Below, piece after piece: positions 17,701-20,700 of a stretch of 64,000 nucleotides of DNA. The position numbers were made by a program. How positions within the stretch are numbered: the stretch's first letter is position 1; every line of letters starts with the position of its first letter. Location of the stretch: assembly GCF_057098645.1 (NCBI RefSeq), contig NZ_CM169472.1. The stretch is one strand, 5' to 3'.

Positions 17701-20700
17701 ACCGCGCAGGATGACATGCCCGTCCGGATTCCCCTGAGTTTGTAGCAACGCAACCTGCCCTGCCTGGTTAATGCCAACAAAACGGTGCGGCTGGGCGGCG
17801 GCGCGCATAGCGTTAATTGCCGTTGCCAGACTGCCATCGGTGCCGTTTTTAAAACCAACCGGCATGGAAAGCCCGGAGGCCATTTCACGGTGAGTTTGCG
17901 ATTCCGTTGTACGAGCACCAATGGCTGACCAGCTAAACAGATCGCCCAGGTATTGCGGGCTATTCGGATCTAACGCTTCCGTCGCCAGTGGCAGTCCCAT
18001 ATTCACCAGCTCAAGCAGCAATTTACGCGCGATCTGCAGCCCGGCTTCTACATCAAAAGAGCCATCCATATGGGGATCGTTAATTAACCCTTTCCAGCCG
18101 ACAGTGGTACGGGGTTTTTCAAAATAGACGCGCATTACCAGATAGAGGCTATCGCTGACCTCTGCGGCAAGGGCTTTAAATCGACGAGCATATTCCAGAG
18201 CAGTTTCCGGATCATGAATGGAACAAGGACCACATACTACCAGCAGACGAGGATCGCGCCCGGCGATAATATCTGAAATGGTTTTACGCGAGTCAGCAAT
18301 CTGGGCTTCTTGTTGCAGGCTTAATGGAAAAGCTGCCTTCAGTTGTTCCGGAGTCATTAAAACCTGTTCGTCGGTAATATGTACGTTATTCAGCGCGTCT
18401 TTTTGCATGATGGCGATCCTGTTTATGCTCGGTTGCGATAGTTGATCCTCAGCGAGGATGACGTAACGATAACACATAAAGTAAAGTTTTCAATCCACAT
18501 TTCGTACATTTTTATTTACACATGCAATTTAGCCGCGCTTTCAACCCTTACCTCTGTATAGATAAATTTACACCCCCCCCCCCCTTTAAAAACAATCCGC
18601 TATGCTTTGAAAAAGGAGAAAGAAATGATGAAAAAGTTTATCGCCCCCTTGTTGGCTTTACTGGTTAGCGGATGTCAGATTGATCCTTATACTCACGCGC
18701 CAACCTTGACCAGCACCGACTGGTATGATGTTGGTATGGAAGATGCGATATCGGGCAGCGCCATAAAAGATGACGATGCATTTAGCGATTCACAGGCGGA
18801 TCGCGGTCTATACCTTAAAGGATATGCCGAAGGACAAAAGAAAACTTGCCAGACCGATTTTACTTATGCCCGAGGACTTTCCGGTAAAAGCTTTCCTGCC
18901 AGCTGCAACAATGTTGAAAATGCCAGCCAACTGCATGAAGTATGGCAAAAAGGGGCTGATGAAAATGCCAGCACAATACGATTAAATTAATTAAAACCCC
19001 ACAAATAAATTAAACATAAGATTTTACTCATTGTGTTTTATTTCTCACATTGATGACGATCGCATGAAAAAATGATATTTTAATGAGCATTCTGAAAAAA
19101 TATCGATGCATTTCGAGCGAAGATGGTGGGGATCCCTGAATGCGTTTTTCTCACCGACTGTTCTTACTGCTGATTCTCCTGCTGACGGGAGCACCAATAT
19201 TCGCTCAGGAGCCTTCTGACGTTGCGAAAAACGTGCGTATGATGGTTTCCGGTATTGTCAGTTACACCCGCTGGCCTGCGCTATCAGGGCCACCAAAGTT
19301 ATGTATCTTTTCATCTTCACGTTTTAGTACCGCCCTACAAGAGAATGCCGCGACATCTTTGCCTTATCTGCCTGTCATCATTCACACTCAACAAGAGGCG
19401 ATGATTTCAGGCTGCAATGGTTTTTATTTTGGCAACGAGTCACCGACATTCCAGATGGAATTAACCGAACAATATCCGTCAAAGGCGTTATTATTAATTG
19501 CCGAACAAAATACCGAGTGCATTATTGGTAGCGCCTTTTGTCTGATCATCCACAATAATGACGTCAGATTTGCCGTAAACCTGGATGCCTTATCGCGTAG
19601 CGGTGTAAAGGTCAACCCGGATGTCTTAATGCTCGCACGGAAGAAAAAAGATGGATAACGATAATTCTCTTCATAAGCGCCCCACGTTTAAAAGAGCATT
19701 ACGCAACATCAGCATGACCAGCATATTTATCACTATGACGCTGATCTGGTTGCTGCTTTCCGTGACGTCAGTGCTAACCCTGAAACAGTACGCGCAAAAA
19801 AACCTGGCGCTAACCGCTGCAACAATGACTTACAGCCTGGAAGCTGCGGTCGTTTTTGCCGATGGTCCCGCAGCGACAGAAACTCTGGCCGCACTAGGTC
19901 AGCAAGGCCAATTTTCAACCGCTGAAGTGCGTGATAATCAGCAAAACATTATTGCCTCCTGGCACTACACTGCCAGAGAACCAGGAGATACCTTCAGTAA
20001 TTTCATTAGCCGCTGGCTCTTTCCGGCCCCCGTCATTCAGCCGATTCGCCACAATGGTGAAACCATTGGCGAAGTGCAGTTAACCGCACGCGACAGCTCA
20101 ATTAGCCATTTTATCTGGTTTTCGCTCGCTGTCCTGACCGCATGCATTCTGCTGGCATCAGGCATCGCAATTACCCTCACCCGCCATTTGCACAATGGTC
20201 TGGTTGAAGCGTTAAAAAACATCACCGATGTCGTACATGATGTGCGTTCCAACCGCAATTTTTCCCGACGAGTTTCGGAAGAACGTATCGCAGAGTTTCA
20301 CCGCTTCGCTCTCGACTTCAACAGTCTGCTGGATGAAATGGAAGAGTGGCAGCTTCGTTTGCAGGCCAAAAATGCGCAGCTTCTACGAACCGCGCTACAT
20401 GACCCATTAACCGGGCTGGCTAACCGTGCAGCGTTTCGTAGCGGCATCAACACGTTGATGAACAGTGCTGACGCCCGAAAAACGTCGGCGTTACTATTTC
20501 TTGATGGCGATAATTTCAAATATATCAATGATACCTGGGGTCATGCGACGGGCGATAGAGTCTTGATTGAAATCGCAAAACGGTTAGCTGAATTTGGCGG
20601 GCTGCGACATAAAGCATACCGCCTGGGCGGCGATGAATTCGCTATGGTGCTCTATGATGTACAGTCGGAATCTGAAGTGCAGCAGATATGCTCAGCACTG

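What the first reader, a model, noticed from the sequence alone, without database searches (positions are those of the whole stretch)
18573..18584. C12 homopolymer in the aroF-yfiL intergenic region
A run of about twelve cytosines lies between the divergent aroF promoter and the yfiL-yfiRNB cluster. Long homopolymers are rare in E. coli intergenic DNA and prone to slippage, so this could modulate promoter spacing for the c-di-GMP signalling operon, or it is a sequencing artefact.
Basis: seen in the sequence. Interest (0 to 1): 0.4.

Follow-up and report, generated by a model that had tools for sequence, protein, structure and literature searches.

The report
Unstable poly-C tract upstream of yfiL
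A run of twelve cytosines between the E. coli genes aroF and yfiL is real, is inherited by one small clade, and varies from 10 to 12 bases among near-identical isolates, so it is a slippage-prone tract that may tune transcription of a biofilm-signalling gene cluster, though this is untested.

Summary
The C12 run sits exactly at 18573-18584. It is the only G/C run longer than 7 in the 64 kb window and appeared in none of 100 shuffles.

It lies in the 216-bp aroF/yfiL divergent region, flush against TyrR box 3 of aroF and 40 nt upstream of the yfiL start codon.

In 5,425 complete E. coli genomes this site is a variable 5-nt spacer: CTCCC, CCCCC, CCACC, CCATC or CCTCC, and CTATC in E. albertii. 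Only CCCCC backgrounds show expansion: C6 in four genomes and C9 in one.

It is not an artefact of this assembly. Four independent draft assemblies share the window's private PheA Q214L variant and carry C12, C11, C11 and C10. The C10 assembly is otherwise identical to the window over 17.5 kb.

So this is a real, clade-specific, length-unstable tract.

Function is inferred only. C10, C11 and C12 place TTTACA (a lac-like -35 inside TyrR box 3) 16, 17 and 18 bp from a conserved AACAAT, which makes a sigma-70-like promoter facing yfiL-yfiRNB. That arrangement is absent at C5.

No transcription start or expression data could be found.

It is a new member of a known kind (a homopolymeric promoter-region tract), and that kind is rare in E. 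coli.

The parts
18573..18584 (+). C12 homopolymer (G12 on the aroF strand). It is the expanded form of a 5-nt variable spacer.
   Evidence: Orthologous site: C5 or an interrupted pentamer in 5,425 complete genomes. C10, C11 and C12 in clade assemblies.
18555..18572 (-). aroF TyrR box 3. It reads TGTAAATTTATCTATACA on the aroF strand, gives 11/12 matches to TGTAAA-N6-TTTACA, and keeps G-N14-C. It directly abuts the tract.
   Evidence: Sequence. Consensus and strong-box criteria from PMC4374768. Naming this as 'box 3' of aroF rests on my own knowledge of the aroF operator.
18567..18572 (+). TTTACA, a -35-like hexamer on the yfiL strand (5/6 to TTGACA). It is the outer half-site of TyrR box 3.
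   Evidence: Promoter scan. Present in all E. coli and E. albertii sequences aligned.
18591..18596 (+). AACAAT, a -10-like hexamer (4/6, with A at position 2 and T at position 6). It lies 18 bp from TTTACA at C12, 17 bp at C11 and 16 bp at C10.
   Evidence: The pair is not reported in K-12, where the spacer is 11. The hexamer lies in a block conserved across E. coli and E. albertii.
18585..18624 (+). Highly conserved 40 nt between the tract and the yfiL ATG. It includes the Shine-Dalgarno sequence AAGGAG at 18613-18618.
   Evidence: Alignment of 13 strains and species; coordinates.
18625..18990 (+). yfiL (DUF2799 lipoprotein, 121 aa), the first gene downstream of the tract.
   Evidence: Pfam PF10973.
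19140..21372 (+). yfiR-dgcN(yfiN)-yfiB c-di-GMP module, 150 nt downstream of yfiL. No + strand terminator-like site is predicted between them.
18466..18520 (-). aroF core promoter (TTGAAA-16-TATCGT, 18493 to 18466) overlapped by TyrR box 1 (18480-18497) and box 2 (18503-18520). It lies roughly 50-120 bp from the tract, and its geometry is not changed by the tract.
   Evidence: The same promoter hexamers are listed for aroF in PMC3946193.
18498..18498 (+). Private SNP (C; T in all other genomes examined) between TyrR boxes 1 and 2. It is shared only with GCA_029361185.1.

Best explanation
SHOWN: the tract is a real, heritable, clade-specific expansion of a short non-conserved pyrimidine spacer next to aroF TyrR box 3. 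A substitution made the spacer an uninterrupted C5, and replication slippage then lengthened it. At 10-12 C it changes length among near-identical isolates. INFERRED: the tract acts as a variable promoter spacer. All E. coli carry a -35-like TTTACA (the outer half of TyrR box 3) and a conserved -10-like AACAAT. With the usual 5-nt spacer these are only 11 bp apart and cannot work together. C10, C11 and C12 set them 16, 17 and 18 bp apart, creating a sigma-70-type promoter that reads into yfiL and, by read-through, yfiR-dgcN-yfiB. One-base slippage would then shift promoter strength (17 bp best). TyrR bound to box 3 would sit on the new -35 and repress it. The predicted transcription start is near 18602-18604.
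For: The tract is real and inherited. The window's exact PheA (Q214L) is absent from 5,425 complete genomes but occurs on 28 draft contigs. Assemblies GCA_024357405.1, GCA_050370935.1, Logan DRR634177 and GCA_029361185.1 carry C12, C11, C11 and C10. The tract is unstable. GCA_029361185.1 is identical to the window over 17,489 bp except for two fewer C, and no other homopolymer differs in any of these comparisons. C12 occurs in two sub-lineages that differ at 18498. Expansions arose independently, and only on CCCCC backgrounds: C6 in three backgrounds and C9 in 2EC1. Indel rate rises exponentially with run length in E. coli, and 8-bp G/C runs are already outliers (PMC8510543). For the promoter, the scan reports TTTACA-18-AACAAT (9/12) in the window and nothing equivalent in K-12. 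My crude position-weight score brings this pair into the top three + strand candidates only at C9-C13. It scores within about 0.3 of the best other candidate at C10-12 and exceeds it only at C11. Both hexamers are conserved across E. coli and E. albertii. No + strand terminator-like site lies between yfiL and yfiR.
Against: There is no TSS, RNA or reporter evidence for any yfiL promoter. A 9/12 consensus match is common: 4 were found in 820 bp against 1.9 expected in shuffles. The spacer would be C-rich. TyrR occupancy could keep the promoter silent. The three observed lengths derive from one ancestor, so their fit to the 16-18 bp window counts as roughly one observation, with about a 1-in-5 chance. 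Part of the C10/C11/C12 spread could be error in calling the length of a long homopolymer in short-read assemblies. Other candidate yfiL promoters lie upstream of the tract: TTCAAC-17-TAAATT and TTTTCA-17-TTTTAT predicted in PMC3946193.
Confidence: 0.4

Rival explanations
1. Neutral slippage by-product. The tract is real and unstable, but it sits in a spacer whose sequence is free to vary and has no meaningful effect on yfiL, yfiRNB or aroF expression. It persists because the clade is young.
For: The pentamer at this site varies freely among lineages, so its sequence is unconstrained. The clade differs from its relatives by about 1 change per 10 kb. The promoter match is only consensus-level. 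The predicted mRNA structure and Shine-Dalgarno accessibility are unchanged by tract length if the tract is transcribed.
Against: The spacer length (5) is conserved in all but about six of 5,425 genomes and in E. albertii, which hints that length matters. Inserting 5-7 bp 40 nt upstream of a start codon in a 216-bp divergent control region often changes transcription. All five clade sequences lie at 10-12 C.
Confidence: 0.35
2. Disruption rather than creation. The native yfiL promoter lies in the conserved 40 nt downstream of the tract. The extra 5-7 bp moves and rotates TyrR box 3 and the A/T-rich upstream DNA relative to it, altering native (possibly TyrR-linked) control of yfiL.
For: The right flank is almost invariant from E. 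coli to E. albertii and contains a -10-like TATGCT (18601-18606) without a good -35. TyrR can control divergent genes from one intergenic region and can act as an upstream activator (PMC4374768).
Against: yfiL is not among the TyrR regulon members listed in PMC5791370, and I know of no report that places it there. No TSS supports a TATGCT promoter. In the C5 geometry the box centre would be about -42, which is not a known TyrR activation position (inference).
Confidence: 0.12
3. The tract is transcribed from a promoter upstream of it and acts in the transcript or at initiation, for example by reiterative transcription if RNA polymerase starts within the run, or by polymerase slippage or pausing.
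For: Candidate promoters upstream of the tract: TTCAAC-17-TAAATT would start transcription at about 18575, inside the run, and TTTTCA-17-TTTTAT is predicted in PMC3946193.
Against: Both candidates are weak, and neither is well conserved. The -35 of the first varies among strains, and the second lacks the key A at -10 position 2. Folding shows the tract unpaired, with Shine-Dalgarno accessibility of 0.21 at C5, C6, C9 and C12.
Confidence: 0.06
4. Sequencing or assembly artefact. The true sequence is the ordinary C5.
For: Long homopolymers are hard to size. Assemblies of the clade disagree by 1-2 bases. No complete RefSeq genome has more than C9.
Against: Four independent assemblies from different submitters and pipelines show 10-12 C at the same site, and both flanks are intact. 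All 28 flanking genes checked are intact apart from a lineage-shared kgtP frameshift. No other homopolymer differs from relatives in the compared regions, apart from a T6/T7 site that is polymorphic among complete genomes.
Confidence: 0.02

Closest known systems
Poly-C tracts in Bordetella fim2/fim3/fimX promoters
   Same: A long C run in a promoter region upstream of a gene for an envelope protein. Tract length is polymorphic among isolates (fim2 10-15, fim3 13-18) and is linked to transcript level (PMC1891110). The tract lies between an upstream regulator-binding site and the core promoter (own knowledge).
   Different: In Bordetella the tracts are conserved features of a gene family and have demonstrated expression effects. 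Here the tract is confined to one small E. coli clade, arose from a 5-nt spacer, and has no expression data. The adjacent regulator site (TyrR box 3) belongs to the divergent gene aroF.
Neisseria meningitidis opc (poly-C) and porA (poly-G) promoter spacer tracts
   Same: A homopolymer lies between -35 and -10, so one-base slippage changes spacer length and grades expression (own knowledge: Sarkari 1994; van der Ende 1995). This is the mechanism proposed here for TTTACA-Cn+6-AACAAT.
   Different: Those promoters and their on/intermediate/off states are experimentally established. Neisseria genomes are rich in such repeats, while E. coli is depleted of them (8-bp G/C runs are outliers, PMC8510543). 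Here the promoter itself is only predicted.
Ordinary mononucleotide-repeat length polymorphism in E. coli intergenic DNA
   Same: Slippage at an uninterrupted run, with variants C5, C6 and C9 among unrelated strains.
   Different: At 10-12 bp the length is far beyond the usual E. coli range. The run-length histogram of the window stops at 7 for G/C.
aroF TyrR operator (boxes 1-3)
   Same: The tract touches the outer edge of box 3, which matches the TyrR consensus at 11/12 positions and keeps G-N14-C.
   Different: The tract is outside the box and upstream of all three boxes relative to aroF. It therefore does not change box-to-box or box-to-promoter spacing for aroF.

Membership tests
Simple-sequence (homopolymeric-tract) contingency / phase-variable promoter locus | An uninterrupted repeat tract much longer than the genome background | tested here: met
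   C12 against a maximum of 7 for any other G/C run in 64 kb. None of 100 shuffles contained a C12 or G12. PMC8510543-bp G/C runs outliers in E. coli.
Simple-sequence (homopolymeric-tract) contingency / phase-variable promoter locus | Tract length differs among closely related isolates | tested here: met
   C10, C11, C11, C12 and C12 in five sequences of one clade. The C10 and C12 carriers are identical over 17.5 kb apart from the tract. Caveat: these are assembly-level calls, not reads.
Simple-sequence (homopolymeric-tract) contingency / phase-variable promoter locus | The tract lies within a promoter (between -35 and -10, or between a regulator site and the core promoter) of the controlled gene | tested here: inconclusive
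   Only a consensus-level prediction, TTTACA-16/17/18-AACAAT. No TSS for yfiL was found.
Simple-sequence (homopolymeric-tract) contingency / phase-variable promoter locus | Expression changes with tract length | not testable with these tools
   Needs reporter fusions or RNA measurements.
Simple-sequence (homopolymeric-tract) contingency / phase-variable promoter locus | High-frequency, reversible switching within a clonal culture | not testable with these tools
   Needs read-level or single-colony data.
Simple-sequence (homopolymeric-tract) contingency / phase-variable promoter locus | The tract is maintained across the species or in orthologous loci | tested here: not met
   About 5,420 of 5,425 complete genomes have a 5-nt spacer, often interrupted. 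E. albertii has CTATC. No E. coli hit with C7 or longer was found in metagenome contigs.
TyrR box (aroF operator) | Match to TGTAAA-N6-TTTACA with G-N14-C | tested here: met
   This holds for the adjacent 18555-18572 element (11/12). The C tract itself is not part of the box.
Sequencing/assembly artefact | Absent from independent assemblies of the same lineage | tested here: not met
   Present as C10-C12 in four independent assemblies.

The most novel reading that the evidence does not exclude
This clade has evolved a contingency-type promoter, something essentially undescribed in E. coli. A hypermutable poly-C spacer turns a latent -35/-10 pair into a tunable sigma-70 promoter. That promoter overlaps a TyrR box, so it would respond to aromatic amino acids. 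It would drive yfiL-yfiR-dgcN-yfiB and generate heritable but reversible cell-to-cell differences in c-di-GMP signalling and biofilm behaviour in a lineage related to Shiga-toxin-producing E. coli (STEC).
Probability: 0.12. Interest if true: 0.65.

Novelty: new member of a known kind. Interest (0 to 1): 0.4.

Why it matters
E. coli is usually said to lack repeat-driven phase variation and to be depleted of long homopolymers. Here a 10-12 C tract is inherited yet changes length among near-identical isolates. It sits where it could set the spacing of a promoter for a c-di-GMP (biofilm/motility) gene cluster, which makes it a concrete and cheaply testable candidate for such variation. It would also show how a latent promoter can be switched on by spacer expansion alone. 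Practically, the tract is a sensitive marker for sub-typing this clade, and it is a site where assemblies will disagree.

Tried and rejected
1. Metagenome scan for ATAAATTTACA + C7: 7 hits, none at the E. coli locus. It gave no extra alleles.

2. Species-representative genome scan with TyrR box 3: only E. albertii was relevant and the other matches were chance. It did give the outgroup state, CTATC.

3. Search for an experimental yfiL transcription start in held supplements (Cappable-seq, SMRT-Cappable-seq, Conway 2014, Kim 2012, Mendoza-Vargas 2009, Rend-seq annotation, Cho 2014): nothing was held or found.

4. Literature on yfiL: only a SELEX-based sequence prediction of a promoter (PMC3946193), a 2.3-fold induction by sigma-E overexpression (PMC2731931), and the operon name yfiLRNB (PMC10294631).

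5. RNA-level effect: folding a putative 5' UTR with C5, C6, C9 and C12 gave the same structure and the same Shine-Dalgarno accessibility. I rejected this as a main mechanism.

6. Mutator or poor-assembly explanation: the only other homopolymer difference from the closest complete genome (T7 vs T6 at 33295) is shared with RM12761, and all core genes are intact.

7. Recombination import of the region: no complete genome carries the window's local haplotype at 18498 or 15643. The changes mark a clade instead.

8. Effect on aroF regulation: the tract is outside and upstream of all three TyrR boxes, so I judged this unlikely.

Full report
OBSERVATION

Window 18573-18584 is exactly twelve C, in the context GATAAATTTACA-C12-TTTAAAAACAATCC. 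It is the only homopolymer longer than 8 in the window. G/C runs fall off steeply with length: 243 of length 4, 59 of length 5, 8 of length 6 and 1 of length 7. There are none of length 8-11, and then this single run of 12. None of 100 dinucleotide-preserving shuffles contained a C12 or G12.

ANATOMY

The tract lies in the 216-bp divergent aroF/yfiL region.

- **aroF side.** The aroF promoter (TTGAAA-16-TATCGT) is at 18493-18466 (the same hexamers are listed in PMC3946193).
- **TyrR boxes.** Three TyrR-box-like elements are at 18480-18497, 18503-18520 and 18555-18572. The last reads TGTAAATTTATCTATACA on the aroF strand. It matches the TyrR consensus TGTAAA-N6-TTTACA at 11/12 positions and keeps the G-N14-C pair (criteria from PMC4374768). 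Calling it 'box 3' is from my own knowledge.
- **Effect on aroF.** The C run starts at the very next base, on the side away from aroF. It therefore does not change any spacing inside the aroF operator.
- **yfiL side.** 40 nt separate the tract from the yfiL ATG, including the Shine-Dalgarno sequence AAGGAG at 18613-18618.

COMPARISON WITH OTHER E. COLI

The locus is present in 5,425 of 5,426 complete RefSeq genomes. None has the window's sequence.

The closest complete genomes are O145:H28 Shiga-toxin-producing E. coli (STEC) and relatives, at 99.9-100% identity over 20 kb. They carry C5, or C6 in RM12761 and RM13516.

A 98-nt query centred on the tract ranks genomes by tract length. It gave one C9 (strain 2EC1, a different lineage), four C6 (RM12761, RM13516, UTME-3, EC26), and 5 nt for everything else whose alignment crosses the site (sequences checked).

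The 5-nt element is not conserved in sequence:

| Pentamer | Found in |
|---|---|
| CTCCC | K-12 |
| CCCCC | O145-like strains, ATCC 8739 |
| CCACC | O157:H7, ETEC4068, 100416 |
| CCATC | ST131 |
| CCTCC | GPEC403-625 |
| CTATC | E. albertii |

By contrast, the 40 nt to the right of the tract are nearly invariant. Every expansion sits on an uninterrupted CCCCC background. This is the pattern expected of replication slippage after a substitution removed the interruption.

A metagenome scan for C7 or longer at this site found no E. coli hit.

IS IT AN ARTEFACT?

Over 34 kb the window differs from the closest complete genome (C325) in few places. Apart from rRNA-operon variants, the differences are 15643 (pheA, Q214L), 18498, the seven extra C, and a T7/T6 difference that RM12761 shares with the window. 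All 28 flanking genes checked are intact, except a kgtP frameshift that is shared with relatives.

The decisive test used the private PheA variant as a handle. That exact protein is absent from all complete genomes but occurs on 28 draft contigs. Four independent assemblies were retrieved:

| Assembly | Tract |
|---|---|
| GCA_024357405.1 | C12 |
| GCA_050370935.1 | C11 |
| Logan DRR634177 | C11 |
| GCA_029361185.1 | C10 |

GCA_029361185.1 shares the window's 18498C and is identical to it over 17,489 bp except for two fewer C. C12 occurs in sub-lineages with either base at 18498. No other homopolymer differs in these comparisons, which include 7 runs of length 7 and 13 of length 6 in the 17.5-kb interval shared with GCA_029361185.1.

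The tract is therefore real, inherited in a clade, and unstable in length. An error of one base per short-read assembly cannot be excluded. This fits the finding that indel rate in E. coli rises exponentially with run length, with 8-bp G/C runs already outliers (PMC8510543).

MECHANISM (INFERRED)

The consensus scan finds a sigma-70-like site on the yfiL strand in the window: TTTACA (18567-18572), an 18-bp spacer, then AACAAT (18591-18596), matching 9 of 12 positions. The K-12 sequence gives nothing equivalent, because the two hexamers are only 11 bp apart there.

A simple position-weight scan over tract lengths 4-16 brings this pair into the top three + strand candidates only at C9-C13. It is best at C11, with a 17-bp spacer, and that is the only length at which it outscores the best other candidate. 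At C10 and C12 it scores within about 0.3 of that candidate.

The three lengths seen in the clade give 16, 17 and 18 bp. Both hexamers are conserved in all strains and in E. albertii. TTTACA is conserved because it is half of TyrR box 3. The pair thus forms a latent promoter that needs only the right spacing.

If the promoter is active, several things follow:

- One-base slippage would grade its strength.
- TyrR bound at box 3 would cover its -35 hexamer.
- With no + strand terminator-like site before yfiR, and with the locus called yfiLRNB in E. coli CFT073 (PMC10294631), transcription could continue into yfiR-dgcN-yfiB.

None of this has been demonstrated. Matches of 9/12 are common (4 found against 1.9 expected in 820 bp), and no yfiL transcription start could be found in any held dataset. 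Other weak candidate promoters lie upstream of the tract. If the tract were transcribed, folding predicts it stays unpaired and leaves Shine-Dalgarno accessibility unchanged.

COMPARISON WITH KNOWN SYSTEMS

The proposed mode of action resembles homopolymeric promoter tracts in two systems. One is Bordetella fim2/fim3/fimX, where the poly-C tract is length-polymorphic among isolates and linked to transcript level (PMC1891110). The other is Neisseria opc and porA (own knowledge).

Against the defining features of a contingency locus:

- **Met:** tract length far above background, and polymorphism among close relatives.
- **Inconclusive:** position inside a promoter.
- **Could not be tested:** expression dependence on length, and reversible switching within a culture.
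- **Not met:** conservation of the tract across the species.

It is best filed as a new, clade-restricted member of the known class of slippage-prone promoter-region homopolymers, which is unusual for E. coli.

VERDICT

- The artefact reading is rejected.
- Slippage is supported.
- A regulatory role is plausible but unproven, at roughly 0.4 for a tract-length effect on yfiL transcription via the predicted promoter.
- Interest is 0.4.

Noticed in passing
window 15643 (pheA codon 214): A missense change, Q214L (CAG to CTG), in the prephenate dehydratase part of PheA. It is absent from all 5,425 complete genomes but present on 28 draft contigs. It marks the same clade that carries the long C tract. 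By my own recollection, which I did not check, it lies next to Q215, a residue studied by mutagenesis.
   Followed up: partly
window 18498: A T-to-C SNP in the 5-nt gap between aroF TyrR boxes 1 and 2, 5 nt upstream of the aroF -35. It is private to the window and GCA_029361185.1. Together with pheA Q214L and the tract, all three lineage-specific changes found in 25 kb fall within 3 kb of the pheA-tyrA-aroF cluster.
   Followed up: partly
window 1780-3077 (-): kgtP (alpha-ketoglutarate permease) is a frameshifted pseudogene, shared with the O145:H28 relatives C325 and RM12761. It is therefore a lineage trait, not an assembly error.
   Followed up: partly
window 3392-8335: The rRNA operon carries clustered differences from the closest genomes (for example 7377-7413 and 8326/8335). 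This looks like variation or gene conversion between rrn copies.
   Followed up: no
window ~33300-64000: A lambdoid prophage or island is integrated next to ssrA. The syntenic region of relatives carries a DinI-like gene, nleG7, and tail and capsid genes. The best complete-genome match covers only 84% at 97% identity. G+C is 0.56-0.59 at 44-60 kb. A T7/T6 polymorphism lies at 33289-33295, just after ssrA.
   Followed up: partly
whole window: There is a strong excess of C over G on the + strand (18,124 C vs 15,062 G). GC skew is about -0.09 overall and reaches -0.19 in the prophage part.
   Followed up: no
L094 1-9700 and L096 1-7150: Two clade assemblies (GCA_050370935.1 and DRR634177) have a P2-like prophage (integrase, Cox, GPA replication protein) inserted just upstream of pheL. 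The window lacks it. These two also share SNP 14782A and the C11 allele.
   Followed up: no
L091 (strain 100416) 339-561: yfiL is truncated by an IS1 insertion in this strain, so yfiL is dispensable in at least one natural isolate.
   Followed up: no
window 18583-18614: The conserved block upstream of yfiL contains two copies of CTTT(A/G)AAAA about 21 bp apart, conserved to E. albertii. This may be an unrecognised regulator site.
   Followed up: no
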